Of a stretch of DNA of 64,000 nucleotides, positions 34,701 to 54,122 are shown piece by piece. Position 1 is the first letter of the stretch; each line of letters begins with the position of its first letter. The stretch lies in NCBI GenBank assembly GCA_000004985.1, contig GG738915.1. The stretch is one strand, 5' to 3'. The notes beneath the pieces were generated by a model. That model was not told where the DNA came from. It saw nothing but the letters and a program-made list of their open reading frames with translations, and did no database searches. This stretch comes from Naegleria gruberi. Its lineage: Eukaryota. The translations under genes were made by a program, and so were the position numbers.

Positions 34701-35115
34701 AGGTAAATTTGCCAAGTTGAGGGAATTGAATTATGTTGCCACAGATGGACATGTTGGTATTGCTTCCACTTCAAGAAATGAGCAAGTTCCCTTCGATGTC
34801 TACATTAGGGAAGGTAACTTGTTGTATAGAGTGGATTCTGATAAGGGTGAGAGAAAGGAAATTCGAATGTTGGTTCACGCTCAACATTGCGTTGTCGAGA
34901 GAGTCATTGCAGAAAGTGGTGATAACTTTATATTTGATAGACATGTTCTCTTTGATCTCAACAAATTTGGCATGTTCACTCAACAGGAAATCACCACTGA
35001 ATTACTCAATGCTCAATTCAAACATGTGAAATGTCTTGGAAAGGGTCTAATTGAAATCAATGAGGAAAATTCTAACACCTCACCTTCCCTCTACTTTGTT
35101 GCCACTAAAAATTAA
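31759..35115 (+). CDS. Four-domain fusion protein: class I/II PLP aminotransferase + phosphopantothenoylcysteine synthetase (CoaB/PPCS)-like + uncharacterised ~200-aa region + class I SAM-dependent methyltransferase
   Basis: Single 1118-aa ORF with no stops. (1) Aminotransferase: the motif GFSKILAPGIRVGYLI fits the PLP-lysine motif S-x-S-K-x(3-5)-G-x-R-x-G. (2) CoaB-like: KVVITSGGTAVPIDSVRYITNSSTGTTGALIAEEF ... SAAVSDY ... LVGFKLLAGAT ... TVANTT, colinear with the E. coli Dfp C-terminal half ([25 protein letters not shown] ... CAAVADY ... VVGFAAET ... ICANDVS). (3) An unknown region with an HAH pair (LILHAHIFPSCDN). (4) Methyltransferase motif I VLDLACGTGEV, motif II FDLIVIRQ, and post-II LNDGGKLIF. 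Confidence 0.7.
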   Translation: MPIIKFSTGSLPINSNLQRVIEKSLSEVNVNNLFNYGTPKGEEFIRHSIANLYNNSRSESDDQKIVMKSDDVFITTSAQQGLNISFATLFGSEVESGKTIVLLQQPCFFGVVRLIKKYCLGKSWIDVITFENIDELLEKFKNFQSAASVNRIVIYLCSNYQPNSGNILSEGEKSDLCNLVSKNIIETTIIEDNPYDFLYGTEKRPSTLFEILPEKTTLIGGFSKILAPGIRVGYLITRNQSFSGRLYREKIDQDLFTSTLSQQVCANALQDVSYLSEWRAFVQKRVQCTVKLLEEIFGEEKRSGKIEWTNIESGIFVYLRFFNSNHEGVASIQKLLEISKNDFELELEPSGYCYLDGCSRLETRINIMLCESEDILREGLERLKIAYHKWTISPNETTSIRSISTEEEKPNKQILKVVITSGGTAVPIDSVRYITNSSTGTTGALIAEEFVKRGHLVYYIHSKNGKVPSKKYPNLILLPYFTFDEYLEVLKQTTIECNPDVVILSAAVSDYGVQQAHEGKISSDLDTQTLTLVKLPKIISLVKHWNPKVFLVGFKLLAGATTETLIDTAYKSGIRNHCNLTVANTTTKDDMSNFGKRIITIITPEKSVISTSVRDLPNALTTHVEKRVSHKHYKTIVIPSDHKDYINYEKVMGESIQTMFSNIQKGYTLGLFDSYFKDETISDMNSHFGFVAMRAPEPYSGFLITSRGSDKSQPSIKDITYISKVDFQARTLHVHSTHRQKASLNANVAGWLFENRPLVNLILHAHIFPSCDNKTDFDYSPGTQEDVDAVARKMSNNEKIVEIPDHGVISVSNSSRIEEAIDALGEGHAYFKFAHLYDMIYARFQKSTDLIDILDREFENKEKVKVLDLACGTGEVSRLMYERGLKNITFADQSDKMLNYAHKKFIDNFGEEISNGISKHVTSMQDLKVNNEKFDLIVIRQAINYAMNLEGLEMIVKNCYEHLNDGGKLIFNTTNFKLDQEGKFAKLRELNYVATDGHVGIASTSRNEQVPFDVYIREGNLLYRVDSDKGERKEIRMLVHAQHCVVERVIAESGDNFIFDRHVLFDLNKFGMFTQQEITTELLNAQFKHVKCLGKGLIEINEENSNTSPSLYFVATKN

Positions 35116-37443: not shown

Positions 37444-38946
37444 ATGGTCCTCAAGAATTTAATACCCTTCTTTAAGAGTGATAATAGCAACAATGATTCA
37501 CCTCCTCCCAACTCACCTACAACAACTATTCCACCAACAACTCAAATCTATCAGCCACCACCAACTCCAGAAAATAGACAACGAGATAATGATCAAATTG
37601 CAGCACTTGCATTGAGTCCAAGAAATCAACAAACTCAAAGACACTTTCGTTCTCCATCAATTTCCATTCCAACCACAAACAGCAACAATCAACAGCAACA
37701 ACCAACAAGTCCAACCAACACTTCTCCAACTACTAACAATACACGAAACAGAGCAATTAGTTCTCCTTTTTCATTCACCAGAAAGAGAGGAACCAGCAAT
37801 GTTTCGAATGGAAGTAATAACGGCAGTACAAGTCCTAGAGGCATTAATGGTGGTGCTTCATCTCCTCGTAATAGCCCTCAACAACCATCATCTCCAAGAA
37901 ACTTGGTGAGAGAACCAACAAGAGAAGAAAGAAGAAAGCAATTATTTAAAGAATTTGAAATGAAGAAAGTTGTCATTTATTCGAATTGTAAACGTTTGAG
38001 AGCTTTACTTGATGTTTTGATTGAAAGAGCTAAACCACATCAAGTTCAGAATGTTTCCTATGTTTTGGCACAAATGTCAGTTGTCGAAACGACTGGTTTA
38101 CCTCCAACCACTGAAAATGATCTTAAAGTTGTAAAGAGCGAATTGAATTCGATTAATCTGGAAATTTTCAGATTATCCTTGTTGATTTCTGAAAGCTACA
38201 AACAAGAAGTTTTACATCTGACAGGTGCCTCAACAATACATGACACGCGTTCACCAACAAGCATTGAAGATGAACAATTATTTGGAAATGTCAGCTGTGA
38301 ATCTGTCATTTTGAAAATAATTGGTAGAGAATTATCAGATCTTGAAAGAGATTTAGAAAGAATGCATCGTAGATGTAGAGGAAATAAGAAGAAACCTATT
38401 GAACAACCTATCCAACCTAAACGAAACAATTCCTTATTTGGAAGAAGAAGAGGAGCTTCTGCAATTGAAAGGCCAAGTAGTATGGTTCTTGGAAATCAAG
38501 ATTCAAAGAGAAGAAACTCTATGGAGTTTTATAGATCTTCAATAATTGATGAACTTGGTCAATCAGTGATGGAAAAAGTTATTGAGCGAGTTCAAAACAG
38601 TCAATTTAGAACTGTCACTAAAGAATTGCATATTGAACAGGGAATTTTAATGTTAATAGAGAAAAGATATGAAGAATTTGTGGATAAAATCAATAGATGT
38701 GACATTGACATTTATAATCCTGTCAGAATGTCAGATTTGAAATCTGAAACATTCTGGACAGATTTCCTCACGAAAAAGATGGCATTCACAGAGAATGAAT
38801 ATCAAAGTGCTCTTCAAAGTTTCTTAATTTCCAAGGAAACTGAAAATAAGAATCAAGAAGGTTCCTCGTCAATGGAAAATCAACTTTCGAATAGTAACTT
38901 TCAGATAGAGAATCGTTCTGAAGAAATTGACTTGTCTGTACAATAA
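37444..38946 (+). CDS. Hypothetical protein with a Ser/Asn/Pro/Gln-rich N-terminus and a conserved C-terminal region; member of a tandem paralog pair
   Basis: 500-aa ORF. The C-terminal half shares colinear blocks with the next gene (FEMKKVVIYSNCKRLRALLDVLIERAK vs FEIRKVLLIGACRMFKDFLLNYKKGK; ILKIIGRELSDLERDLERMH vs IINEIVDNLTKIERDAECLH). Confidence 0.45.
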   Translation: MVLKNLIPFFKSDNSNNDSPPPNSPTTTIPPTTQIYQPPPTPENRQRDNDQIAALALSPRNQQTQRHFRSPSISIPTTNSNNQQQQPTSPTNTSPTTNNTRNRAISSPFSFTRKRGTSNVSNGSNNGSTSPRGINGGASSPRNSPQQPSSPRNLVREPTREERRKQLFKEFEMKKVVIYSNCKRLRALLDVLIERAKPHQVQNVSYVLAQMSVVETTGLPPTTENDLKVVKSELNSINLEIFRLSLLISESYKQEVLHLTGASTIHDTRSPTSIEDEQLFGNVSCESVILKIIGRELSDLERDLERMHRRCRGNKKKPIEQPIQPKRNNSLFGRRRGASAIERPSSMVLGNQDSKRRNSMEFYRSSIIDELGQSVMEKVIERVQNSQFRTVTKELHIEQGILMLIEKRYEEFVDKINRCDIDIYNPVRMSDLKSETFWTDFLTKKMAFTENEYQSALQSFLISKETENKNQEGSSSMENQLSNSNFQIENRSEEIDLSVQ

Positions 38947-39638: not shown

Positions 39639-40661
39639 TTGAAGAAGAACATCAACAACAAGTATTCAATAACGAGTATTATGATCATAATAAGTGGAAC
39701 GCGGGCAGATGATTTCGATCTGATACCCATGAGTCTCTCAGATAGTGGAGACACAACATCAATGAGGAGTTATGTTATTCAGAATCGAGCACTTCGTTCC
39801 AATTCTTTACAACCTTCATCACCCTCATCGTTTAGTCCTCAGTTTCCAAATAATCAAAGCAACTATTCAACTAATAGTACCACTTCGACAATGAGTGGTT
39901 CCAACTCAAATACATCTAAGAGAAATTCCTCACTTTCGCATCTGTGTTATTCGCAAGAGTTTGTGGAGAATCATTTGAAGAGTACAGCAGAGATGGCAAG
40001 TCAGTTTGAAATACGAAAAGTGCTCTTGATAGGTGCTTGTAGAATGTTTAAAGATTTTCTATTGAATTATAAGAAGGGCAAGTCAGATGATGTCACTGGT
40101 TTTATTCGAGTCAAGATTGAGTTTATTAGAACTGAATGTAAAAAGCTGTCCTTATTGGCAGAGACAATATATATAACTACTCCTTCTCATCACAGAAAAA
40201 TGGAGTGCTGTTGTAATGTCATTTCACAAATGGATATTATTAATGAGATTGTTGATAATCTCACTAAGATTGAACGAGATGCAGAGTGTCTTCACTCAAC
40301 CCTGAAACAGGGTGTTTCAAAGTCATTTCGGTCTAATTCTTTGGTATCGTTTTCGTATGATTTCCAAAGAGCTTCCACAGCACTGGAAGCTGTAGATGAA
40401 TTACCCTTAGAAAAAGGAATCACCCTGCTTCTCCTTAGAAGAAATCTCGAGAGGAGAACTAATCGAATGCTCACCAATACTCTCCTAGACCCAATCTCAA
40501 CCAAAGAAGACGAGCAAGCCGACAAGTTGTACCTGCAGGAAGAAATAGGACTCCTTCCCAAAGAATTTCAAACCACTCTTAATCGTTTCTACATGGCTCA
40601 ACGAGGTGGCTCTTTCTGTTCACTCACTGACTTGATTCCAGACGATTCCTTTGAAGATTAA
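39639..40661 (+). CDS. Hypothetical protein, tandem paralog of 37444..38946
   Basis: 340-aa ORF; Ser-rich N-terminus; conserved blocks shared with the upstream gene. The true start may be Met at MSLSDSGD (about 39729). Confidence 0.45.
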   Translation: MKKNINNKYSITSIMIIISGTRADDFDLIPMSLSDSGDTTSMRSYVIQNRALRSNSLQPSSPSSFSPQFPNNQSNYSTNSTTSTMSGSNSNTSKRNSSLSHLCYSQEFVENHLKSTAEMASQFEIRKVLLIGACRMFKDFLLNYKKGKSDDVTGFIRVKIEFIRTECKKLSLLAETIYITTPSHHRKMECCCNVISQMDIINEIVDNLTKIERDAECLHSTLKQGVSKSFRSNSLVSFSYDFQRASTALEAVDELPLEKGITLLLLRRNLERRTNRMLTNTLLDPISTKEDEQADKLYLQEEIGLLPKEFQTTLNRFYMAQRGGSFCSLTDLIPDDSFED

Positions 40662-41391: not shown

Positions 41392-44300
41392 ATGAATCAA
41401 CATTCACGTTCAACAAGATCATCATCCACTCCAACCCATAGCAATACCACCACAAGACAACCACAACAACAACAGCAACAACAATCAATTTTGCCACAAT
41501 ATAAAGATGTAATAGACAAGGTCAATGAGCCACTCTCACTCATCTACTTTGAATCGTCATCAGACGCAAAGGCTGCTAAAAGAACATTAAATTGGGGACT
41601 TTACTTTTACGAGCATGGTGAATATATTAAATCGAGAGAGGCTCTAATTAAATGTGGAGAAGTTATTTCGAAAATCAATTCTAAACTTTCTACCATTAAT
41701 AATAATAATGGCTCGACAATTTCATTATCATCAACAACATCTCAGGGAAATACAGAATTAGTACAAGGTAAGAGGAATTTTCAATGATTGCAAGTGTCAA
41801 TCAATTATAATGACAATTTAATTTACTTTAATAGTTGGAAAGGATTTACTTTATCGAATTATTCTACTTGTGGAATGTTTGGATAAGATTATGAAAGCAA
41901 AACATCAACAATCCATTGTAAAGAACCAAGCAACCAATTCACCACCTAAAACAACATCAAAACCAAATTCAACACCAACAAACAGTTCTTCTTCTAGTAG
42001 TAGCAGCACTCAGGGAACACTTTCTAGAATATCGAGTGGCATATTTTCAACAATCACGAGTAACTTTACATCTATCAAGAGTAATCTTCAGAAGGAGGGT
42101 TCCTCTTTGAATAATACTAATGGTAATAATGGTAGTAACTCGAAACTGATTCAATTATTCAACAATGTTGGAAATGTACTGAAAAAACCAAAGGAAGAGG
42201 TTGCAATACCCAATCTAGCAGACTCTTATGTACAGGATCAATATGTGTTTGTGGAATTTATAGATGAGAAGAAACCTAATGAGCAACAACAACATGTACA
42301 CAGCAATTTAACTAATTCTCCGAACGATGGAAACATCCCTCCTCTACAACAGGTCAGCTCCTCTAGGGATTCTCTCTCTAAATTACAAAAACGTTTGCAA
42401 ACTGTAATGAAAGGCTCCTCAACAACAACGAATACATCTTTACAACATCAACAACCACAACAGCAACAACAGGTAAATTTGACAGGTAGTGGTTCCTCCT
42501 TGTCAGCTTCCTCTCTTCCAGGTCCAATCAGATTATCCCTTGATGCCTTGCAAACATCAGCGTCTGCAACATCACCAAATGGAGAAGTGAAAAGAGGTCC
42601 ACAAACATCCAGACTCAAATCTTTTATTCAATACATGGAAGAGAGGAGTGGAACATGGAGTCCTGAAACAATTTCTGAGGAAGAGGTTAGGGAGATGGTG
42701 AGAGTACTCAATGAAAATTTAAAGATTTTGAGTACCTCATCAAATTACAAAACAATGGGAATTCTGGCACAAATGTACGATCAAATACGTCCCTATAAGA
42801 AGCAAGTTCTGAAAGAGCTCTCCAGTCAATCAACCAAAGACAAGAGCAAGAAGATTTTAATGTTAAAGAAAATTATTAGTATTGCATTTTCAACCAAAAT
42901 GGTAAATCACTATATTTCAAAAGAGGAAAATTATACAACACTTCAGGAAAATTTCCTTCAATATTTCGAGTTGGATCTCTTTACATTGCATTTGCTGAAT
43001 ATTTATGCAGCAGCTGAAAACTTTGATCACACAAACTTTTGCCTTTCACATCTAGTTGCTAACATTGAGCTATTTTCACAAGCAATTAATGATGTTAATC
43101 AATACCAAGTTGAGAAGAGACAAATTTACAAACAAGTGGATGAATTAATTTTTGGCCACCTCAGAAATAGAATAATCGAGTTGAAGTGGTGTTTTGGAGT
43201 TGACACGTTTGCATACGTGACTAATGATTTCGACAGTGACGCTCTCGAGTCACTAGAATTACTACTCAAGTGTCTTGATGGTTGGCTTAAAATCAAAACA
43301 CAAATGGGTGACTATAGTGTAAATAATAGACCAACAATAGCAGCCATTTTAACAGAATGTTTGGCTCATTTTGTAAGAAAATTGTACATTCTCAACAGAG
43401 AAATGATATCAAATAATTTGAAACAATCTCCTCATTTGAGAGGTTTCTTTTTGGAAGCATCTTTTGACATGAATCTCTCAACATTTGTTGTAGATGAGAC
43501 GAAACAATTGTGTTCTAGGTTTGCTTCCTACTTTGACAAGTATTTTGAAAATACTGCTCAATTTAAAGATATTGTAGCAGTCGAGTTTTCTAAACATTTA
43601 TCAGTGGAAGTTAAGGCATTCTGTCAGGAAGCTCTCAAATATCAACAGGCATGTATGGAACAAGCAAAGAAAAATAAGTTTTTGAGAGTTTACTTTAACG
43701 ACTTGAATTTGGGTGTTCTGAATAAGTTGGTGTCCCACTTTGTGACCAAGTACAGAATTCTTCAAGAACTGTCGCCATGTGTAAAAGATTTTGAAATTGA
43801 ATCTTTCTATGAAATTGTGAGTATGTGCATTACAGTTGCTACTCCAAACAGACTGAAAGATTTTTACTCAAAGGTCATGAGTATGGACACACTAGATAAA
43901 CCAATCGACAAGACAGTCCTTTATACATTCTCCTGTATAGATATGGCTAATGCAAGTCTCAAACCAATTCACATGATTTACAATTTGGACACTCTTATTA
44001 GAAATGGAAATGACAAGTATTTGAGTTTTTTAACTCTGCATTTTGAAGCTATTAGACCAACCATTTCCGAATATTTACAATTAATGCTCAATAGATGTAA
44101 ATATGAATTATCCAAAGTGCAGGGAAATGTCCATGACAGAATACGTTTAGCATGTATTGCCTTCAACAATGTCAATGGACTTTTCATGTATGCCAAAGAT
44201 ATCCTGCAACAATTTAACAGTTCAGTATGTGATCAACTGTTGGAAGACTATGACAGAAAGGTTAATCCAGAGGAAGAATCTGATCAGTTCAACATTAATA

Positions 44301-45226
44301 TACTCCAAGAAAAGTTGATTCAAGTTTATGATTTTCCAAGCGTAAAATCCATCACAAATGAGATAAGAATGGTCACTACAGATATGGCCTTCTTTATTGC
44401 TGACTGGTTGTATAATATGAATGAACAGAGATTTGAGGCAATTTTTAACATTGCATCCAATGGTTCACCTCAAGAAAAATTGTTCATTTTCCTGTCCTCT
44501 TTGGATAGGTTTTTTATGCATTTGTCAGACAATCTCTACTTGGAATTGTTACACGAGGTTCTACGACACTTATATGTAATCTATGTACAAAAATTAGTAA
44601 GAAACAAACTCTTAGGATACAAGCAAAAGAGTCCACTGAACGCCTCTGAATTACTTTCTCCTATTACTGGTATGGATGGTGCAACACCATTCTCTCCAAA
44701 TACATCACCAGTTCCATCACATTTTCCTACCTTTGAATCATCCCAGAAAGTAACTGTTCAATTATGTTTGGATGGACTCAAGGATTTATTCAATGCTTCA
44801 GGAGAAGGTTTGGATTCAAAATTCCTCGATCAACAATCACGAGAATTGGACATTTTAATATTGATCTATAATGACGAAACAGATATTTTGATTAATTTAT
44901 ATGAGAATCTTATTGGAGAAAGAGTTGATGATAAGTATTTAACAAGTCTCTATCAACGATTGGCACCTCAATCACCAAATTTGAACATGCCATCGTCTGT
45001 CTCAATGCCATCATTGGATGATAGTGATTCTATTTCCATAGCAAGTAGCAGCAGCTCTACAGATTCATTCATCCTGCTTTCACTCCAAGAGGCCATCAGT
45101 AGTAAGAGAAAGAATTCTGATTTCCTTTCTCCAGAACTTATTCTCCTCCTACTCAATCAGAGGAAGAAAGATAGAACAGCTAGATCATATGCAAGAAGGA
45201 GACTGAAAGAATTGAAAGAAAAATAA
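41392..45226 (+). CDS. Large hypothetical protein (~1250 aa), two exons (41392..41779, 41838..45226)
   Basis: ORF 41392..41787 ends at a GTAAGA donor (41780); the acceptor TTTAATAG ends at 41837. Splicing joins ...NTELVQ to VGKDLLYRIILLVECLDKIMKAKHQ..., the frame of the 1118-aa ORF. Q/N/S-rich N-terminal region, then a long alpha-helical-looking body without recognisable motifs. Confidence 0.5.
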
Positions 45227-45281: not shown

Positions 45282-47529
45282 TTATTTGGTGTTTGGAGTA
45301 TCAACAAAATCCCAACGTGAGCAGTCAACAACCAATGACTGTGCCAATAATAATCTCATTTTACAAATCCTATCGTCTGGATCAATGCTAGCAACTTGTT
45401 CTAGTAGTTGCTCTGCAGAAATAGGATCAAACCTATCTCGGCAAAATAAGTGGGAAATAGCTTTCTCAAACATTTCTTTAGTTGACCGTTTCTTACAATT
45501 TTCAAAAGGTATAATTTCCATAATTTCTACGTAATTTCTCTTACCCACTACACAGATTTTCCCAATCGATCGACAACTCCCTCCCTCTCCCAGAAAAATC
45601 GGTGAACAAGAATCAGTTACACTTTTCGATACTAGAATCTTGGCATCGTAATATTTCGTCAGAGATTCTAATCGAGCAGATAAATTGACTGCATCCCCAA
45701 CTATGGTTGGATCCATTCTCTTTGACTCTCCAATCAAGCCAACTGCACATCGTCCTCTGACAATTCCACATCCTATTGAAATAGGACCAACGATTGGTGA
45801 CACACTCTCATTAAAAACCAGAACACAATTTTGAATTTCAATCGATGCTTTCAGTGCATGGCCTGGCTCTGTAAATAGGGCAATAAATCCATCACCTTAA
45901 TAAAGTTCGTTCATAAATTTCTAAATTCTCGAATGAACATACCCATATATTTATCAATATATCCACAATTTCTCCTCACAATCGGACCAACCAAAGCCAA
46001 ATATCGATTCAATAATTTGAACATTTGATCAGTTGGTAGCCTCTCACTCATTGAAGTATAATTTCGAATATCAACAAACATAATATCCAACTCCTTCTCA
46101 AAGAAATCACCATGATGCAAATCTGTCACCTTCTGCTTATTGATAATGGACATGAATTCTCGTGGCACGAATTTGTAAACCATATCCTCTTGGAGACGCA
46201 ACATTTTCTTCCAAGGTCCTAGAATAGTTTTCGAAAATAGCAACGCCACCAATGCTGCCACAAGAACCACAATTACTATAACAATGGTAAATGCAATTAA
46301 TGAATCGGTAGCATTCAAACCAATTTGATTCGAATAGTCTAATAAGACCAATCTCATTCGATCTTCCACAATCCCTAAAAGAATTCATGCACAGAGTCAT
46401 GTTAAAAAACCATTCTTCAAGTGTATACTTTGTTAAATTTTGATAATTATCCAAGACATAATCTTCCATACTCTGACAGATATTTTGCTGAGTATCATTG
46501 AGAATATTTGTAAGGAATTCTGTGTAAATTTCATTGGATGCCTGAAGAGAGAATAAGTGTCGAACCAAGATTCCCTATAATACATTTAAAGATTTTGGTA
46601 AAAGTTGTTTTTCTTACACCACAATATTCAAAATTACTTACTTTAATGACTGCTTCTTTGAATGAATCAATCGAAGCTTGAGACAAACTTCCATTCATAA
46701 ATCCAAATGTTCCATAAATTCTTCTAATTCCTCGATATTCCCTAGCTGCGGAAAGTAAGTTGAATGAATTGTGAATTATTGCAAAAGTTGGATCCAAACT
46801 TTGACTTGTTACAACTCTAATCATATCATTGATCAAAGAATCCCAATCGTTGATGTATTGGATTGTTGGTAAAAAGGTTTCGTTCGTAACATTCTCCACT
46901 TTCATTCTCCACTCTCCAACACCTTTCGAATAACCAATGACCTTTCCCAAATAATCCTCAAACAAATACCACGTCCTTTTCCACTGTTCATTAATCAAAA
47001 TATCGTTTGGGCTTACCGAAAGTGCGAAGAACCTTTCGATAGCATTGTCAGTTCGATTTCTTGCTTCAGCTAATTCAATTGTATACTGCCTCTTATGAGA
47101 ACCTAGATAAAGAGATGTGATTCCTCTTTCATTTTGCAAACAATCACCAAGTTCTGAGAGATGCATTGTCACTCTTGATAGTTTTTTAATCTCATTCGCA
47201 TGGTTCAAGTTGACCGCAGCAGAATTAATCAGTAAGGCACCAAATACTGCCATAGGAATCAAGCAAAATGCAATAATGAGGGCCAATTTAATGATGAGAG
47301 GTATTTTCTCCAAGATTCTTATTGGAAAGAAACTATTAAACAAGGATTTGTTCATTATGGATTGAGAAGTTATTTTGGATTTGTGTCCTTTCTCAGTGAT
47401 TGGAACTGTGGTTGATGGTTCCTCGAAGGTATCTGGTACAGTACCAGATATACGTTTTGCATGCAATGTTCTTTCTGCATTGTGTTCTACTTGTTGTTGT
47501 TGGGGCGTTTCAATATTCGAAACCTCCAT
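45282..47529 (-). CDS. Membrane-bound class III nucleotidyl (adenylyl/guanylyl) cyclase with an extracellular NIT-like sensor domain; at least 4 exons
   Basis: Exon 1 (47529..46642) encodes a cytoplasmic N-terminus, TM1 (LIIKLALIIAFCLIPMAVFGALLI) and a sensor domain with LSELGDCLQNERGITSLYLGS, reminiscent of the NIT domain ELQ-ERG-S-x-x-YL-S signature. A 67-nt intron lies at 46575..46641 (GTAAGT...TATAG). Exon 2 continues the sensor (GILVRHLFSLQASNEIYTEFLTNILNDTQQ...). TM2 (LIAFTIVIVIVVLVAALVALLF) is followed by the cyclase core FEKELDIMFVDIRNYTSM...YIDKYMG | 47-nt intron (45896..45942) | DGFIALFTEPGHALKASIEIQNC...GPISIGCGIVRGRCAVGLIGESKRMDPTIVGDAVNLSARLES. The exon junction near 46370 is unresolved. 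Confidence 0.65.
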
Positions 47530-48440: not shown

Positions 48441-49790
48441 ATGAAAAAGAAAATGAATCCATTTGCCTTGCTTGATTTCCATTTGCCTCATAGATTTTCC
48501 TTACATGGTACGGAATCAAAGTATTTTGATCAGGTGCATGTTACCAAGGCCAATGATGAACATACTACTCTACAGGCAGTTGTTGGTGGTGATTCACCAA
48601 CTTGTTTAAAAGAAGAACAATCTTTATGTAATACTAATAATAATAATGGCGGAAATTGCTCCCCTTGTAATACTATGACCAATATTAGAAATAATACATT
48701 AAATAATCAAAGTGATGGATGTTGTCTCACTGAAGAAGACTCTGAAATATTGAATTGTTACTACAGTTCATCCATGTTTCTTCATGTGATCGCAAGGCAA
48801 GAGCTTGAACGTTTCTTACAAGATTCATCATCCAATTCCTCAAAGGCCAACACTCTGGAAATGATAGAAATGATGACCTTGTATTATTCCATCAAGGCAA
48901 CTTGTGAACTCCAGATGGGACGAATGGACAAATATGAAATCTCGGGAATGAAGGCAATGGAGAATCTTGTCAAACTTTCAAGTACAAACTTGGCGATTGC
49001 TGGAAGCTACCTTAATATGTGCTTGCTTGAATTGTGGAATGATAGATTTGATATTGCAAAATTGTATTTTGCAAAGGTTATGACCTTCAAACCATACTTT
49101 GAGAATGCATCGGAAGGACAGTATGAGTACAAATTATTGAAAGATGACCTCAATATCTCAGTCAAGTTATTGGAGTATACTCTATTCAATGCTGATGTTA
49201 ACAATCTTCATCATTTATTGTTTGAAAGGTTTCTTGTAAATTTACCAACTCTCTTTTCGTATTATAGAACTGGGCAAGCGCTCATTAATGAATGGAACCA
49301 CATTCTAAAGAATCCTCACCTTATCAATTCATCAAATTGTATGCAAGTTCATATGCTGATATTGACACTCTTGAGGGATTGTAAAAAGTATGAAGAAGAT
49401 ACAAAGGGACGATCAGAAAATCTCACTTTACTGTACGACTTTTTGGAAAGTGGGATAACATTGGCTCTGTTATCCAAATGCTCTGAAAAAACGCCCATGA
49501 TTGAGTATACCATTGAATCAAGTGCAAAGAGAATTGTCAAGTCAATTAAGAATCCAAATTTTGAATCTGCTCCATTTGAAGTGATCATTTATCTTTCATT
49601 TGCTGCAGAGCATCACTTGAAAAGGATTCTACAAGGTGTTTTATCAAGAGACTCGATGAATTATGTTGAAATGCTTCGAGATACACTCAATGCATACAAA
49701 TCTCTTCAATCCAGATTTAAAATAGCCAATTTTTACTATTATGGGGGAGTATTCCAACAAGTGGATTTATACTTCTGTAATAAAGCGTAA
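48441..49790 (+). CDS. Paralog of the Zn2Cys6 regulator family, with a degenerate or absent zinc cluster
   Basis: 449-aa ORF colinear with 50007..51719 (MNPFALLDFHL vs MNPFLVLDFHL; LYYSIKATCELQMGRMDKYEISGMKAMENL vs LYYSIKATCECQMGQIDKAELSAKQAKEYL; KNPHLINSSNCMQVHMLILTLLRDCKKYEED vs KNPHLIDSTNCVQVNTLLQNLLRECKRYEQN). Cys spacing in the N-terminal region does not fit CX2CX6C. The start is probably Met 48453. Confidence 0.5.
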   Translation: MKKKMNPFALLDFHLPHRFSLHGTESKYFDQVHVTKANDEHTTLQAVVGGDSPTCLKEEQSLCNTNNNNGGNCSPCNTMTNIRNNTLNNQSDGCCLTEEDSEILNCYYSSSMFLHVIARQELERFLQDSSSNSSKANTLEMIEMMTLYYSIKATCELQMGRMDKYEISGMKAMENLVKLSSTNLAIAGSYLNMCLLELWNDRFDIAKLYFAKVMTFKPYFENASEGQYEYKLLKDDLNISVKLLEYTLFNADVNNLHHLLFERFLVNLPTLFSYYRTGQALINEWNHILKNPHLINSSNCMQVHMLILTLLRDCKKYEEDTKGRSENLTLLYDFLESGITLALLSKCSEKTPMIEYTIESSAKRIVKSIKNPNFESAPFEVIIYLSFAAEHHLKRILQGVLSRDSMNYVEMLRDTLNAYKSLQSRFKIANFYYYGGVFQQVDLYFCNKA

Positions 49791-50006
49791 ATTATCCAAT
49801 TGACTACAGTTCCTTAATCTCTATAATAAAAATATAACCATACAACCAATTGAGTTAAGTGTTTTGTTTTGGGGCGAAGGACTTTCCTCCAATTAAAATT
49901 TCATCCTGAAACCTGTACAACCGATCCCTTATCACCATTGATCAATGATTATTTCCAAGATTGAAACTCTTTCATCTGCCTTAATCAAAAGTGTGGAGGC
50001 TTTTAA

Positions 50007-51719
50007 ATGGTTTGTTTACCTTCCTTATTAAATCAACCATTTGAAAAAAAATCAATGAATCCCTTCCTAGTGCTCGATTTCCACTTATCGGATGAGAATT
50101 TGTTCTTCAATCCTAACAATTTTCAGCCGGTAACCTTTGCAAATAACTGTACTTTTATTCCACAATTACAACCTCTTCAGACTCAGCCTCAATATATTAC
50201 TTCAACAACAGCATCAATAACTAATCACAATACTTCTATTAATCAACATCCTAATAATATCCAACAACAACAACTCCATCACAACAAGAATGGTTTCAAC
50301 CAACAACAAATACCTTCCTCATTCCAGAACGACTCTGTCAGTAGTTCCACTTCCTGCGATCCGGCCACTACACATGGAGGAAGCCGAAGCAACCACAACT
50401 CTGTTACAACAAATCAAACTGCTCTTGAGAATGTAGCAGAAAATGGCACATCTCAACCTTCAGAAGAGAACGCTAACTGTGATAATGCAGATGGAACCAT
50501 TGCTCCAATATCTTGTGATGCATGTCGTTCTAACCATCGTCGATGTGATCGTATCAGACCTTCATGTCAAGCTTGTAAAATAAGAGGAATCCCATGTAAC
50601 TATAGTATGAACTTTAAGAGAAGAGCCAAGTTTATTAACAATAACAGATTGAAGGATGAAGATGTTGCAATTTTGGATGTTTATTACACAGAGTCTGGAT
50701 ATCACATGGTTTCAAGGACAGAGTTGGAACAATTCTTGTTAGAATCTTATAAGTGTAACGGCTCTTACACAACACAAGATATGAAAGAGATGATAGCCCT
50801 GTATTATTCAATTAAAGCAACCTGTGAGTGTCAAATGGGTCAAATTGACAAGGCAGAGTTATCCGCAAAGCAGGCAAAGGAGTATCTTTCCAAAGTATTT
50901 GATTGCTATACCAGTATGAAGGTTGCTGGAACCTATCTCAACATGTGCTTTTATGAACTGTGGTTTGAGAGGTTACACACAGCCAAGTTTTACTTTCAAA
51001 CTCTACTCTTCTTTAAAGAAGCTCTTGAGAACTCAAAGGAAGAAACAAAGAATTCCATTAGAGAGCATCTAATAATTACAATCACCTACTTGGAGGAGAC
51101 CATATTTAACATTCAGGATAAGAAGAACCTTCATGAGAGAACCTTCGACAGGTTTTTGCTGACACTCCCAACACTCTTCTCCTATTTGAAAACTTCAGAT
51201 TGTATGTTTGGTAGTGACTGGGATTATTATTTGAAGAATCCACACCTAATTGACTCTACGAATTGTGTACAGGTTAATACACTCCTTCAAAATCTATTGA
51301 GAGAATGTAAGAGGTATGAACAGAATAATTTTGGAGGAAATCCAGTTCTGGATTTGTACTATGATGTCATGGAGAGTGGTTGTACATTGGCACTGTTGTC
51401 AAAAACTAAGGAAATGAATTCAATGATGGATTATGTCTTGGAGAGAAGTGCTACTACTATTGTAAATTCGATTAATAACCCTAAATTTGAATCAATGCCT
51501 TTTGAGATTCTTCTCCACATTTCATTTGCTGCAGAGTATCATTTGAAAAAGGTGAGAGAGGGCATATTTATGGGTAGTATGAATAATTGTGATTATATTG
51601 AAATGTTGAGAACTGAATTAAGAGCCTACCAAACCCTACAATCAAGATACAAGATTGCCAAGACTTACTTTTATGGTGGAATATTCAAGAAATTGGATGA
51701 CTATTTCAATAATCAATAA
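50007..51719 (+). CDS. Zn(II)2Cys6 (Gal4-type) binuclear-cluster transcription factor
   Basis: CDACRSNHRRCDRIRPSCQACKIRGIPCNY matches C-x2-C-x6-C-x6-C-x2-C-x6-C followed by basic residues. The long C-terminal region is shared with the upstream paralog. The start is probably Met 50055 (MNPFLVLDFHL). Confidence 0.65.
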   Translation: MVCLPSLLNQPFEKKSMNPFLVLDFHLSDENLFFNPNNFQPVTFANNCTFIPQLQPLQTQPQYITSTTASITNHNTSINQHPNNIQQQQLHHNKNGFNQQQIPSSFQNDSVSSSTSCDPATTHGGSRSNHNSVTTNQTALENVAENGTSQPSEENANCDNADGTIAPISCDACRSNHRRCDRIRPSCQACKIRGIPCNYSMNFKRRAKFINNNRLKDEDVAILDVYYTESGYHMVSRTELEQFLLESYKCNGSYTTQDMKEMIALYYSIKATCECQMGQIDKAELSAKQAKEYLSKVFDCYTSMKVAGTYLNMCFYELWFERLHTAKFYFQTLLFFKEALENSKEETKNSIREHLIITITYLEETIFNIQDKKNLHERTFDRFLLTLPTLFSYLKTSDCMFGSDWDYYLKNPHLIDSTNCVQVNTLLQNLLRECKRYEQNNFGGNPVLDLYYDVMESGCTLALLSKTKEMNSMMDYVLERSATTIVNSINNPKFESMPFEILLHISFAAEYHLKKVREGIFMGSMNNCDYIEMLRTELRAYQTLQSRYKIAKTYFYGGIFKKLDDYFNNQ

Positions 51720-51913
51720 ATAATCCTTACTATTATACTATTGTATCATGAGGATAAAGCACAAGTGTTCGAATATACAATCCAATTCAAGTTAGGCCGT
51801 ACGATTTGGTTTCCCTTCCTGTTCCGCCCAAAATCAGATGTGCACAATTATAAATTCCATTCCCTTATTACTCCTTCCAGCTCATCAAAAGGAATAAAAT
51901 CATCTTAAAGAAA

Positions 51914-54122
51914 ATGCACAAGGAAGAGGCAGTGTTTGATATTTGTGAAGATAATGTGAGCACACCAACCAGTCCTAAAGCTATTCAGCTTATTGAAACG
52001 TCACCCTCATCAACAGAAGAAGTAAAACAATCCATACCAGTAAAAACAGCCGCGCAATCAAATGAACCAGAGGAAGTTTTAAAAGATCCAAATGGACCTA
52101 CTTTACACTTTTATGATCATTTTCTGATCTTTAAGTGTTTTGGATTTTGGACATGGATATTCATTATTTTGGGAATCTTGGGCTCTATGGGTAATGGTGT
52201 TGTGGCGTTAATATTTCAATTCATATTCGGTGATTTGATCAATATTTTCCAACCTGTGAATGGAGTTATGCCATCAGCTACAATAATGAGAAATGCCATC
52301 TCAGATGTTTGTCTCAAATTTACAGGAGTTGCTATTGGAAGTATGGCTTCCAGTTTCGTATCTCAATTTTTCAATGGGTGGGCCAGTGAAAGAATTGGAA
52401 TCTCTCTCAGACAGGCTTATTTCAATGAATTAACAAGACAAGAGGTTGCATTCTTTGATATTAAGAAAACAGGTGCCCTGACAATTGCACTCAGTGAAGA
52501 TGTTGGAAAGATCCAAGAAGCTTGGACCAGAAAAATTTCTGGTGTCATGCAACACACTAGTACCATTCTCATTGGGTTGATTCTGGCCTTTGTCAGTAGT
52601 TGGCAAATGACTCTCGTTACCATTTCAACCACTCCACTCATGATTTTGATTGGTGTGGTTATGGGAAAATTGACAGAAAAGATTAGTTTTAAATCAGGTG
52701 AAACTATCGCAAAGAGTGCCTCAAAGGCAACCGAAGTTGTCTCCTCATTCAAAACAGGTAAGTTGAAATTCCAATATTTGTTCTAAAAAATTCAACCTAG
52801 TTAAAAGTATGGGGTGCGAAGAAAAGGAACAAGCTCAATTCGCTAACATTTTGAAAAAGCTTCATTTGTATGGCATATTAAAAGCTGGCGCACAAGGTGC
52901 TAGTTTGGGGTCTGAAAGCTTCATCATTTGGGGTACCTGTTCATTGGCCTTTTGGTATGCGTAAGTAGCAGTGTAATTTTAAACCTCAATTTAACAATCA
53001 ACAGAGGTAACCTGGTTGTAGATGGAACTATTGTCATTGGAGATTTGGTAAAAGTTTTTGGTTTGTTAATTTTCAGGTAAGTTAAATTTCCAATATTTGT
53101 ACCTTAGACCTATTCTATAAGTACAGTGTATTTTCAATGGCATTTGTTTTTGAAATGTTACCTGACATTTTCAAGGCCTTGAGCTGTCACAGAGCTCTAC
53201 TTATGGTTATGAAAAGAAAACCAGCCATTCCATTTAAGGGTGGAAAGAGTTTGAGCGATAATGTAGGATTGGTTGAATTTAAAAATGTCAAATTTTCATA
53301 TCCATCTCGTCCAAATGTTACTATTCTTCAAGATTTTACACTTAATGTAAAGACAGGTCAATCAATTGCTATGGTTGGTCCGTCAGGATCAGGAAAATCG
53401 ACCATTGTTGGCTTGTTAGAAAGATTCTATGATCCAGAAGAAGGAGTTGTTTCAATTGACGGTGTAGATATTAAGGAAATTGATCCAAAGTGGTTGCACA
53501 AAAATGGTAAGTATCTTAAAAAATTATTCCTTATCAAGTATTTAAAACTATAGTTGGTATTGTTACACAAGAACCAGTATTGTTCGCTTGTACCATTAAG
53601 GAAAATATTGCTTATGCAGTTGGTTTGGAAAATGTAACTGATAAAGATATTGAACAAGCTGCCAAAGCTGCCAATTGTCATAATTTCATTTTGGATCTTC
53701 CTAATGGATACAATACATTACTCGGTGAAAAAGGTGTTTCTCTTTCAGGTGGCCAAAAGCAACGTGTTGCCATTGCAAGAGCTCTCTTACAAAATCCTAA
53801 AATTTTGCTTTTGGACGAAGCAACTTCAGCTCTCGACACTGAATCTGAAGCTCTTGTTCAAGCTGCTTTGGAAATGTTAATGAAAGGAAGAACCTCCATC
53901 TCCATAGCTCACAGACTTTCAACAGTTCAAAATTGTGATGTCATTTACGTTCTCGTTAAAGGAGACATCAAAGAATCAGGCACTCACAAGGAATTGATTG
54001 GCATTGAGAATGGTATTTACAGAAAATTAGCAGAAAAACAAATGGGAATTGATCAATCTTACGAATCATCCAATGAAAATGTTGGTGATACTTCTTCTCC
54101 AAGTGATTTAAATCAACAATAA
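51914..54122 (+). CDS. ABC transporter, ABCB-type half transporter (TMD-NBD), 5 exons (51914..52757, 52801..52960, 53005..53076, 53127..53506, 53554..54122)
   Basis: N-terminal TM helices, then an NBD with Walker [11 protein letters not shown]-loop VTQEPVLF, signature [15 protein letters not shown], Walker [14 protein letters not shown]-loop IAHRL. Introns of 43, 44, 50 and 47 nt, all GTAAGT donors. The spliced product is continuous (...FKTG|[34 protein letters not shown]...AFWYA|[24 protein letters not shown]|[11 protein letters not shown]...WLHKN|[11 protein letters not shown]...). Confidence 0.75.

What the first reader, a model, noticed from the sequence alone, without database searches (positions are those of the whole stretch)
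48441..51719. Tandem Zn2Cys6-family paralogs, one with an intact DNA-binding cluster and one without
Both proteins start MNPFxxLDFHL and share a long C-terminal regulatory region. Only the downstream copy retains the canonical CX2CX6CX6CX2CX6C cluster (CDACRSNHRRCDRIRPSCQACKIRGIPCNY); the upstream copy has scattered cysteines that do not fit the spacing. This looks like duplication followed by loss of DNA binding in one copy. The cluster-less paralog could act as a dominant-negative or co-regulator partner. The pair also establishes a fungal affinity for this scaffold.
Basis: partly seen in the sequence, partly recalled or inferred. Interest (0 to 1): 0.5.

Follow-up and report, generated by a model that had tools for sequence, protein, structure and literature searches.

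The report
Naegleria zinc-cluster regulator and DNA-blind twin
Two neighbouring genes of the amoeba Naegleria gruberi (not a fungus) are duplicates of one Gal4-type zinc-cluster regulator, and one copy has truly lost its DNA-binding module while keeping the rest, so it is probably a partner or brake for its sibling: a neat but fairly ordinary case of gene evolution.

Summary
ORFs 48441-49790 and 50007-51719 are paralogs (48% identity over 383 aa, E 1e-114). Both begin MNPFxxLDFHL at their likely start codons. Only the downstream copy has a Zn2Cys6 cluster (Pfam Zn_clus, E 2e-7).

The loss in the upstream copy is real. The cluster's place lies inside a continuous ORF, collapsed to 3 of 6 Cys columns, and the basic linker is gone. 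No cluster is encoded anywhere else in the window in any frame.

The "fungal affinity" is wrong. The window is a Naegleria gruberi scaffold (genes NAEGRDRAFT_74540 and 74541), and Naegleria is already known to carry about 71 zinc-cluster proteins.

- **Timing:** N. lovaniensis and Willaertia have one copy at the syntenic locus, always just upstream of an MDR-type ABC transporter. The duplication is therefore probably specific to the N. gruberi lineage.
- **Selection:** the DNA-blind copy evolves faster (96 vs 37 unique changes) but is still constrained.

A modulator role through heterodimerisation is plausible but untested. Novelty is modest.

The parts
48453..49790 (+). Upstream paralog without a cluster, NAEGRDRAFT_74540 (445 aa from MNPF; the ORF opens at 48441).
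   Evidence: ORF. 100% identical to N. gruberi EFC37685.1/D2VZM4. No Pfam hit.
48453..48485 (+). N-terminal motif MNPFALLDFHL of the upstream copy.
   Evidence: Aligned with MNPFLVLDFHL (downstream copy) and MNPFMLLDFHF (N. lovaniensis ortholog) at the very N-terminus. This shows the upstream gene's N-terminus is complete.
48603..48725 (+). Relic of the Zn2Cys6 cluster and linker in the upstream copy (CLKEEQSLCNTNNNNGGNCSPCNTMTNIRNNTLNNQSDGCC).
   Evidence: Only Cys columns 1, 3 and 6 are kept and about 29 residues are missing. K+R is 2 against 13 in the downstream segment. No match to Pfam Zn_clus or to the family cluster HMM.
48726..49787 (+). All-alpha C-terminal domain of the upstream copy, homologous to the downstream domain that models with a Cep3-like fold.
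   Evidence: 48% identity to the downstream domain. Against a 99.1% identical strain, the covered last 553 nt show 3 synonymous changes and 2 non-synonymous changes, both in the last 11 codons. That is 5/553 differences against 10/264 in the intergenic spacer, p=0.009.
49791..50054 (.). Spacer between the two paralogs, presumably holding the promoter of the downstream copy.
   Evidence: 3.8% divergence from the near-identical metagenome contig L002, against about 0.25% in the constrained part of the downstream gene and about 0.9% in the covered part of the upstream gene.
50055..51719 (+). Downstream paralog with an intact cluster, NAEGRDRAFT_74541 (554 aa from MNPF; the ORF opens at 50007).
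   Evidence: ORF. Exact match to N. gruberi EFC37686.1/D2VZM5. Positional ortholog of N. lovaniensis C9374_007407 and W. magna ABK040_011218.
50088..50513 (+). Low-complexity, predicted-disordered N-terminal region of the downstream copy. It is much shorter in all relatives.
   Evidence: pLDDT 24-33. Between near-identical strains it carries 9 non-synonymous changes, 2 synonymous changes and one codon deletion.
50514..50597 (+). Zn2Cys6 binuclear cluster CDACRSNHRRCDRIRPSCQACKIRGIPC.
   Evidence: The only match to the pattern in six frames of the window. Pfam PF00172 E 2e-7. The family profile hits Gal4, Lac9, Hap1, Put3, Leu3, Ppr1 and Cep3 clusters in the PDB.
50598..50651 (+). Short basic linker (NYSMNFKRRAKFINNNRL) with no coiled coil.
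   Evidence: Non-helical with pLDDT 65-70 in the model, and followed directly by the first helix of the domain. Its basic character is lost in the upstream copy.
50652..51716 (+). All-alpha Cep3-like (MHD-like) domain of the downstream copy.
51914..54122 (+). Adjacent multi-exon MDR/ABCB1-like half ABC transporter; a conserved neighbour and candidate target. The 3' end is approximate.
   Evidence: ABC_membrane and ABC_tran. Best PDB matches are ABCB4/ABCB1 at E 2e-43. Orthologs of 66-78% identity lie directly downstream of the regulator in N. lovaniensis and W. magna, while 9 other neighbouring ORFs of the window are not found in those loci.

Best explanation
Shown: the window is Naegleria gruberi (Heterolobosea). 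The downstream gene (NAEGRDRAFT_74541) encodes a Gal4-type regulator. It has an N-terminal MNPFxxLDFHL motif, a disordered spacer, a canonical Zn2Cys6 cluster, a short basic linker without a coiled coil, and a roughly 355-residue all-alpha domain whose predicted fold is that of yeast Cep3. At HMMER sensitivity this domain was found only in Naegleria and Willaertia. The gene sits directly upstream of an MDR/ABCB1-like half ABC transporter, on the same strand, and this pairing is kept in N. lovaniensis and Willaertia magna although the other neighbours differ. The upstream gene (NAEGRDRAFT_74540) is a tandem duplicate. The duplication most likely happened in the N. gruberi lineage. The cluster and basic linker were lost by in-frame deletion and decay, while the N-terminal motif and the alpha domain were kept. 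The upstream copy evolves about 2.6 times faster than its sibling but is still an intact, constrained ORF.

Inferred: the downstream protein binds DNA, probably as a dimer held by the alpha domain as in Cep3, and the neighbouring ABC transporter is a likely target. The upstream protein cannot bind DNA through a zinc cluster. It most likely acts through the retained alpha domain and N-terminal motif. It could form heterodimers with its sibling that carry only one DNA-binding module, which would attenuate or retarget it. Alternatively it could compete for the same ligand or cofactor.

The confidence given (0.5) is for the whole statement including the inferred modulator role. The descriptive part (real paralogs, real loss of the cluster, Naegleria origin, Cep3-like fold of the model) I hold at about 0.9.
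For: - **Paralogy and cluster loss:**
- **Organism and gene identities:**
- **Domain family:** 81 relatives among 1.84 billion representatives. 42 of the 83 sequences scanned (the two window proteins plus 81 relatives) carry Zn_clus. Every named protein among the 20 looked up, and every named hit of the homolog searches, is Naegleria or Willaertia.
- **Dimerisation precedent:** Cep3 dimerises through this domain (3240 A2 buried, no coiled coil; PMC2246632). The MHR of the fungal factor PnPf2 mediates homodimerisation in yeast two-hybrid (bioRxiv 10.64898/2025.12.09.693112).
- **Single copy elsewhere:** the syntenic locus of N. lovaniensis (+-10 kb) and W. magna (+-8 kb) holds one copy.
- **Tree:** neighbour-joining groups the two N. 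gruberi copies at 81% bootstrap.
- **Asymmetric rate:** Tajima test gives 96 vs 37 unique changes, p 3e-7. Of 157 columns identical in three cluster-bearing relatives, 47 changed only in the upstream copy and 10 only in the downstream copy.
- **Constraint:** a 445-codon open frame in 35% GC DNA. Against a 99.1% identical strain the covered part of the upstream ORF has 5/553 differences versus 10/264 in the spacer (p 0.009), with no amino-acid change in the covered part of the domain before the last 11 codons.
- **Conserved regulator-transporter pair:**
Against: - No expression, localisation, interaction or DNA-binding data exist for either protein, so the modulator role is inference only.
- Strain-level evidence for constraint on the upstream copy covers only its last 183 codons and rests on 5 differences.
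- The upstream copy has replaced 35 otherwise conserved positions inside the alpha domain, including a run of 8 at downstream residues 300-319. This could equally mean loss of the ancestral interaction surface.
- Loss of the basic linker may also have removed a nuclear localisation signal.
- The 81% bootstrap comes from a simple neighbour-joining tree with a long upstream branch.
- The Cep3 similarity rests on a predicted structure, and sequence profiles do not connect the domain to Pfam Fungal_trans.
- A scan for CGG/CCG triplets in the promoters gave nothing conclusive.
Confidence: 0.5

Rival explanations
1. The upstream copy is kept for a function that no longer involves its sibling. For example it could be a cytoplasmic scaffold or sensor built on the alpha-helical domain and N-terminal motif, after losing both DNA binding and, possibly, nuclear targeting.
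For: Strongly accelerated and asymmetric divergence (96 vs 37 unique changes). 35 conserved positions inside the domain are replaced only in this copy, with a run at residues 300-319. The basic KRRAK stretch is lost. The ORF is still intact and constrained.
Against: The N-terminal motif specific to this orthogroup is retained almost unchanged. 86 of the 143 conserved columns that are kept in both copies or changed in only one are still kept in both. Tandem position next to the sibling favours co-regulation. DBD-less paralogs of dimeric factors usually act on their siblings (general knowledge, not tested here).
Confidence: 0.25
2. The upstream copy is a non-functional relic (young pseudogene or dispensable gene) that has not yet acquired a stop codon.
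For: It has lost its DNA-binding domain, evolves much faster than its sibling, and has changed 47 otherwise conserved positions. Its cluster region has turned into an Asn-rich low-complexity stretch.
Against: It has diverged by more than 50% in protein sequence and is still an uninterrupted 445-codon frame in AT-rich DNA. In the strain comparison the covered part diverges significantly less than the neighbouring spacer (p 0.009), and 3 of the 5 differences are synonymous. The near-identical strain also keeps the 3' part of the frame open.
Confidence: 0.1
3. The missing cluster is an annotation or assembly artefact, and the real upstream gene has a cluster-encoding exon or frame that was missed. 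This is the case for most 'MHD-only' fungal proteins.
For: In fungi more than 90% of MHD-only models are such errors (PMC10141177). In this very family the 'cluster-less' N. lovaniensis protein C9374_003211 (P0021) has an intact cluster exon 130-215 nt upstream of its annotated start (L004 3785-3868).
Against: The N-terminus of the upstream copy is homologous to the true N-terminus of cluster-bearing orthologs, so the cluster's place is inside the continuous ORF, where a degenerate relic is seen. No cluster pattern or family-HMM hit occurs in any frame near it or anywhere else in the 64 kb.
Confidence: 0.02
4. The duplication is old, predating the split of N. gruberi from N. lovaniensis, and the cluster-less copy was later lost in the other lineages. 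The grouping of the two N. gruberi copies would then reflect gene conversion or a tree artefact.
For: The downstream copy is more similar to the N. lovaniensis ortholog (60.5%) than to its tandem neighbour (47.0%). Bootstrap is only 81% in a simple NJ tree. Only two other genomes could be inspected.
Against: The upstream copy is closer to its neighbour (47.0%) than to N. lovaniensis (45.2%) or W. magna (37.1%). The syntenic loci in both other species hold one copy. Rate acceleration of the upstream copy explains the identity pattern.
Confidence: 0.15

Closest known systems
Cep3 / 'CeGAL' family (Zn2C6 cluster followed by the middle homology domain, Pfam Fungal_trans) of fungal transcription factors
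   Different: The organism is a heterolobosean amoeba, whereas this domain pair is described as fungal-specific (PMC10141177). No sequence-profile match to Fungal_trans, Fungal_trans_2 or any other Pfam family was found, even at E<=10. Identity to Cep3 is about 10%. The domain family was found only in Naegleria and Willaertia.
Genuine 'MHD-only' fungal proteins (zinc-cluster relatives without a DNA-binding domain)
   Same: The upstream copy is an alpha-domain-only derivative of a zinc-cluster factor.
   Different: In fungi most such models are annotation errors and real cases are rare and debated (PMC10141177). Here the loss can be seen inside one continuous ORF that has a complete N-terminus and a recognisable relic, so it cannot be a missed exon.
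DBD-less paralogs that titrate dimeric transcription factors (Id proteins for bHLH factors, plant microProteins such as LITTLE ZIPPER); from general knowledge
   Same: It arose by duplication of a DNA-binding factor, lost the DNA-binding part, and kept a domain that mediates dimerisation in the structural relative Cep3.
   Different: Interaction with and inhibition of the sibling are not shown. The retained part is a full 350-residue domain plus an N-terminal motif, not a minimal dimerisation peptide.
Fungal zinc-cluster regulators of multidrug ABC transporters (Pdr1/Pdr3 with PDR5, Tac1 with CDR1); from general knowledge
   Same: A zinc-cluster factor with a large helical regulatory domain is linked to an MDR-type ABC transporter. 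Here the link is conserved adjacency across three species.
   Different: Regulation is not shown. The transporter is an ABCB-type half transporter, not a PDR/ABCG full transporter. No binding motif could be identified.
Naegleria gruberi zinc-cluster expansion (71 proteins noted by Scazzocchio 2014, PMC5611559)
   Same: The downstream gene is one of these already catalogued proteins. UniProt labels several family members 'Zn(2)-C6 fungal-type domain-containing'.
   Different: [quoted passage not shown] For this subfamily the predicted fold of the second domain says the whole two-domain architecture resembles the fungal one.

Membership tests
Zn2Cys6 binuclear cluster DNA-binding domain (Pfam PF00172, Gal4 type): downstream copy | Six cysteines spaced CX2CX6CX5-12CX2CX6-8C and a score above the Pfam gathering threshold | tested here: met
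   CDACRSNHRRCDRIRPSCQACKIRGIPC at 50514-50597. PF00172 scores 31.4 bits against a cutoff of 21, E 2e-7. The family profile aligns to Gal4, Lac9, Hap1, Put3, Leu3 and Cep3 clusters.
Zn2Cys6 binuclear cluster DNA-binding domain (Pfam PF00172, Gal4 type): upstream copy | Six cysteines in canonical spacing, and basic residues between Cys2-Cys3 and in the linker | tested here: not met
   No Pfam hit at E<=1. Only 3 of 6 Cys columns are kept and about 29 residues are missing. K+R is 2 versus 13. The family cluster HMM finds nothing in any frame near the gene.
Zn2Cys6 binuclear cluster DNA-binding domain | Zinc-dependent binding to CGG/CCG triplets | not testable with these tools
   CGG/CCG triplets were counted in the promoters of three species, but the result was inconclusive.
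CeGAL / Fungal_trans (Zn2C6 plus middle homology domain) | Sequence match of the second domain to Pfam Fungal_trans PF04082 (or Fungal_trans_2) | tested here: not met
   No such hit for the two proteins at E<=1, for the 83 sequences scanned at E<=1e-3, or for 43 members at E<=10. A PDB profile search matches Cep3 only through the cluster.
CeGAL / Fungal_trans (Zn2C6 plus middle homology domain) | Cep3-type all-alpha fold directly C-terminal to the cluster | tested here: met
CeGAL / Fungal_trans (Zn2C6 plus middle homology domain) | Restricted to fungi (as the family is described) | tested here: not met
   The host is Naegleria gruberi. All named relatives looked up are Naegleria or Willaertia.
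DBD-less modulator paralog (MHD-only / Id-like) | Derived from a DNA-binding factor by loss of the DNA-binding domain, and not a gene-model artefact | tested here: met
   The alignment shows a relic inside a continuous ORF with a complete N-terminus. The tree groups it with its cluster-bearing neighbour. No hidden exon was found. As a positive control, the same kind of scan finds the missed exon of P0021.
DBD-less modulator paralog (MHD-only / Id-like) | The retained interaction domain is under purifying selection | tested here: inconclusive
   The frame is open over 445 codons. There are 5/553 differences versus 10/264 in the spacer (p 0.009), and 3 of the 5 are synonymous. However, only the last 183 codons are covered, and the lineage is accelerated.
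DBD-less modulator paralog (MHD-only / Id-like) | Binds the full-length sibling and alters its activity | not testable with these tools
   No multimer prediction or experiment was available. The only precedents are dimerisation of Cep3 and of PnPf2 through the equivalent domain.
Zinc-cluster regulator of a multidrug ABC transporter (Pdr1-like logic) | The factor controls transcription of an MDR-type ABC transporter | not testable with these tools
   Only conserved adjacency is shown: regulator then ABCB1-like half transporter, same strand, in three species, with no other shared neighbours. Two other family members are not next to ABC transporters.

The most novel reading that the evidence does not exclude
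The complete Gal4/Cep3-type architecture (zinc cluster plus middle-homology-type domain) exists and has expanded in Heterolobosea, although it is held to be fungal-specific. One ancient orthogroup would be wired to an adjacent multidrug-type ABC transporter, much like fungal Pdr1-type xenobiotic regulators. N. gruberi would then have newly evolved a bona fide alpha-domain-only inhibitory partner of that regulator. This would give a concrete, testable function for one of Naegleria's enigmatic zinc-cluster proteins. It would also give a handle on whether the family entered Naegleria by transfer of a whole fungal-type gene or descends from an early eukaryote.
Probability: 0.25. Interest if true: 0.6.

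Novelty: new member of a known kind. Interest (0 to 1): 0.38.

Why it matters
The pair itself is an ordinary outcome of gene duplication, and both genes are already in the N. gruberi annotation as uncharacterised proteins. Three points give it some value.

- **A clean alpha-domain-only case.** It is an unusually clear example of a zinc-cluster relative whose DNA-binding domain was lost inside the reading frame. In fungi more than 90% of such proteins have been shown to be annotation errors, and it is debated whether the domain can act alone (PMC10141177).
- **Architecture outside fungi.** The second domain of this Naegleria subfamily has the Cep3 fold. The two-domain architecture described as fungal-specific therefore seems to occur in a very distant eukaryote. 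This bears on the open question of how zinc clusters reached Naegleria (PMC5611559, PMC5415576).
- **A testable target.** The conserved pairing with an MDR-type ABC transporter offers a first hypothesis for what one of Naegleria's roughly 71 zinc-cluster proteins regulates.

Tried and rejected
- **Hidden exon or frame with a cluster for the upstream copy:** rejected. The regex scan and the family HMM on all six frames of the 64 kb find only the downstream cluster. The same kind of scan did recover a missed exon for the N. lovaniensis protein P0021.
- **Fungal origin of the scaffold:** rejected.
- **Pfam Fungal_trans membership:** no hit at any threshold.
- **Cluster-less family members as a general feature:** not established. 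Many 'cluster-less' representatives are fragments or truncated models. For example, P0009 is a fragment of an 812-aa cluster protein, and P0021 is an annotation error.
- **Exact look-ups of the N. gruberi loci** for P0003, P0005 and the window ORFs: not on record. The other N. gruberi paralog loci could therefore not be inspected.
- **Two metagenome scans for further orthologs:** nothing found.
- **afdb50 fold library:** unavailable.
- **CGG/CCG triplets in the promoters** of the two copies and of the ABC transporter in three species: too few and too variable to call a shared site.
- **Another tandem pair next to W. magna P0018:** the 626-aa neighbour is not a family member.
- **Two ORFs of identical length (1118 aa) at 31759 and 41870:** unrelated. 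The window has no direct DNA repeats of 100 nt or more.
- **First structure model from 6 sequences:** poor (pLDDT 57). It was replaced by a 43-sequence model.


Full report
**1. What is in the sequence**

The window holds two same-strand ORFs at the reported coordinates: 48441..49790 (449 aa) and 50007..51719 (570 aa). They are clear paralogs, with 48% identity and 68% positives over 383 residues, E 1e-114. Both contain MNPFxxLDFHL a few codons after the first ATG. The deposited gene models and the N. lovaniensis ortholog start exactly at this Met, so the likely starts are 48453 and 50055.

The downstream protein has CDACRSNHRRCDRIRPSCQACKIRGIPC (50514-50597). This is the only match to the Zn2Cys6 spacing in all six frames of the 64 kb, and it scores above threshold on Pfam Zn_clus (31.4 bits, E 2e-7). 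The upstream protein matches no Pfam family even at E<=1. Neither protein matches Fungal_trans.

**2. The organism is not a fungus**

- The upstream protein is 100% identical to Naegleria gruberi NAEGRDRAFT_74540 (EFC37685.1, D2VZM4).
- The downstream one is NAEGRDRAFT_74541 (EFC37686.1, D2VZM5).
- Other ORFs of the window are consecutive N. gruberi genes on the same 260,018-bp scaffold.

Zinc clusters outside fungi are documented. Shelest 2017 calls the distribution patchy (PMC5415576). Scazzocchio 2014 counts 71 such proteins in N. gruberi and remarks that they look unlike fungal ones and that their role is unknown (PMC5611559).

**3. Is the loss of the cluster real?**

The check matters, because in fungi more than 90% of "domain-only" zinc-cluster relatives are gene-model errors (PMC10141177). 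I also found such an error in this very family. The "cluster-less" N. lovaniensis protein C9374_003211 has an intact cluster exon 130-215 nt upstream of its annotated start (L004 3785-3868).

For the upstream copy in the window the situation is different.

- Its N-terminus aligns with the true N-terminus of the cluster-bearing orthologs.
- The cluster's place lies inside the continuous ORF. There only Cys columns 1, 3 and 6 survive, about 29 residues are missing, an Asn-rich stretch has appeared, and the basic KRRAK linker reads IRNNT.
- K+R in the segment falls from 13 to 2.
- A cluster HMM built from 38 family members and run on the six-frame translation of the window hits only the downstream ORF (E 7e-18). 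Every other hit has E>0.5, and none lies between 46 and 50 kb.

**4. What the shared C-terminal region is**

A profile of this region searched against 1.84 billion representative proteins finds only 81 relatives. Of the 83 sequences scanned (the two window proteins plus 81 relatives), 42 carry Zn_clus, and no Pfam family covers the region. Every named protein among the 20 relatives looked up, and every named hit of the homolog searches, is from N. gruberi, N. fowleri, N. lovaniensis or Willaertia magna.

An AlphaFold2 model of downstream residues 150-554, built from a 43-sequence alignment, is confident (pLDDT 90.6, pTM 0.83). It shows the cluster, a short non-helical linker, and an all-alpha domain of about 17 helices.

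- The six best Foldseek hits are all Cep3.

Cep3 is the only solved example of the "middle homology domain" of Gal4-type factors (PMC10141177). By fold and domain order this Naegleria subfamily therefore has the full Gal4/Cep3 architecture. By sequence profile it is not a member of Fungal_trans.

**5. History of the pair**

In N. lovaniensis the ortholog (C9374_007407, 55% identical to the downstream copy) is single within +-10 kb. In W. magna the ortholog (ABK040_011218) is single within +-8 kb.

A neighbour-joining tree on 372 gap-free columns groups the two N. gruberi copies at 81% bootstrap, with an upstream branch about 2.7 times longer. Tajima's relative-rate test gives 96 changes unique to the upstream copy against 37 unique to the downstream copy (p 3e-7). 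Of 157 columns identical in three cluster-bearing relatives:

- 86 are kept in both copies;
- 47 are changed only in the upstream copy (12 in the cluster and linker, and a run of 8 at downstream residues 300-319);
- 10 are changed only in the downstream copy.

The most likely history is a tandem duplication in the N. gruberi lineage, followed by loss of the cluster and accelerated change in the upstream copy. An older duplication with losses elsewhere is not excluded.

**6. Is the upstream copy still functional?**

It is an uninterrupted 445-codon frame in 35% GC DNA despite more than 50% protein divergence from its sibling.

A metagenome contig (L002) that is 99.1% identical to window 49238-53678 offers a strain-level comparison.

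| Region compared | Differences |
|---|---|
| Last 553 nt of the upstream ORF | 3 synonymous, 2 non-synonymous (both in the last 11 codons) |
| 264-nt spacer between the copies | 10 |
| Downstream cluster plus alpha domain | 3 synonymous, 0 non-synonymous |
| Downstream low-complexity N-terminal region | 9 non-synonymous, 2 synonymous, 1 codon deletion |

The upstream ORF diverges less than the spacer (Fisher p 0.009). The data are few, but they point to purifying selection on the alpha domain of both copies.

**7. Context**

In all three species the cluster-bearing gene is followed directly, on the same strand, by an orthologous half ABC transporter (66-78% identity). Its closest solved relatives are ABCB4 and ABCB1/P-glycoprotein (E 2e-43).

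None of nine other neighbouring ORFs of the window is found in the flanks of the other two loci. Two other family members are not next to ABC transporters. The regulator-transporter pair is thus a conserved two-gene block, which makes the transporter a candidate target. This is inference from synteny only; a triplet scan of the promoters was inconclusive.

**8. Mechanism**

Shown:
- one copy has a canonical DNA-binding cluster and the other cannot have one;
- both keep the N-terminal motif and a homologous C-terminal alpha domain, which has a Cep3-like fold in the model of the downstream copy.

Inferred:
- Cep3 dimerises through this domain with 3240 A2 buried and no coiled coil (PMC2246632).
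- The equivalent region of the fungal factor PnPf2 drives homodimerisation (bioRxiv 10.64898/2025.12.09.693112).
- The Naegleria proteins lack a coiled coil after the cluster.

The downstream factor therefore probably dimerises through the alpha domain, and the upstream protein could join it in a heterodimer with a single DNA-binding module. It might instead compete for the same ligand or cofactor. I rate this partner/modulator reading as the most likely single mechanism, at about 0.4-0.5. An independent new function comes next at about 0.25, and a decaying relic at about 0.1.

**9. Verdict**

The duplication-and-loss interpretation is supported and survives its own refutation test. The taxonomic inference is wrong. 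The functional proposal remains untested.

The genes are already annotated, zinc clusters in Naegleria are known, and DBD-less paralogs are a known kind of regulator, so novelty is modest. The added points are the Cep3-like fold outside fungi, a demonstrably genuine domain-only derivative, and the conserved link to an MDR-type transporter. They make the locus a reasonable entry point for asking what Naegleria's zinc-cluster proteins do.

Noticed in passing
window 50055-54122; L001 10001-13949; L003 8001-12044: The cluster-bearing regulator is always followed directly, on the same strand, by an orthologous ABCB1/ABCB4-like half ABC transporter in N. gruberi, N. lovaniensis and Willaertia magna. 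None of nine other window neighbours is shared. This suggests a conserved regulator-target pair.
   Followed up: partly
L004 3785-3868 (N. lovaniensis PYSW02000017.1): The N. lovaniensis family member C9374_003211 (P0021) is annotated without a cluster, but an intact Zn2Cys6 exon (CIHCRRLHKKCDKMLPSCSKCISRGVKC) lies 130-215 nt upstream of its start. This is a gene-model error of the kind described for fungi.
   Followed up: yes
window 50259-50436: The low-complexity N-terminal spacer of the downstream copy is a hotspot of change between near-identical strains: 9 amino-acid changes and one codon deletion within residues 85-143. The rest of the protein has none. Relatives have a much shorter spacer.
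   Followed up: partly
L002 (ENA ERZ929261, contig k127_290713) = window 49238-53678: A 4.4-kb metagenome contig is 99.1% identical to this N. gruberi region and keeps both paralogs and the ABC transporter. A very close relative of N. gruberi NEG-M was therefore present in that sample.
   Followed up: partly
window 46531-47529 (-): The ORF upstream of the pair carries a NIT (nitrate/nitrite sensing) domain, E 2e-15. It appears to be one exon of a larger gene. A NIT+PAS+RGS gene also lies near another family member in W. magna (L005 1-968).
   Followed up: no
L003 6071-6538 and 17267-17539 (W. magna): Two genes with Barstar (PF01337) hits flank the W. magna ortholog. Barstar is a bacterial RNase-inhibitor domain, which is unexpected in a eukaryotic genome.
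   Followed up: no
L001 6431-7501 (N. lovaniensis): A DDE_3 transposase-like gene lies about 2.5 kb upstream of the single-copy N. lovaniensis ortholog, in the position where N. gruberi has the extra paralog. The upstream flank of this locus seems to be a site of rearrangement.
   Followed up: no
window 37444-38946, 39639-40661, 41870-45226 (+): Three long ORFs (500, 340 and 1118 aa) have no Pfam match. The 1118-aa ORF has exactly the same length as the methyltransferase-domain ORF at 31759-35115 but is unrelated to it.
   Followed up: partly
window 50952-51011 (downstream residues 300-319) and the aligned stretch of the upstream copy: Eight positions that are identical in all cluster-bearing relatives (YELWFERL...LLFF) are replaced only in the cluster-less copy. 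This may mark a surface whose role was tied to the DNA-binding module.
   Followed up: no
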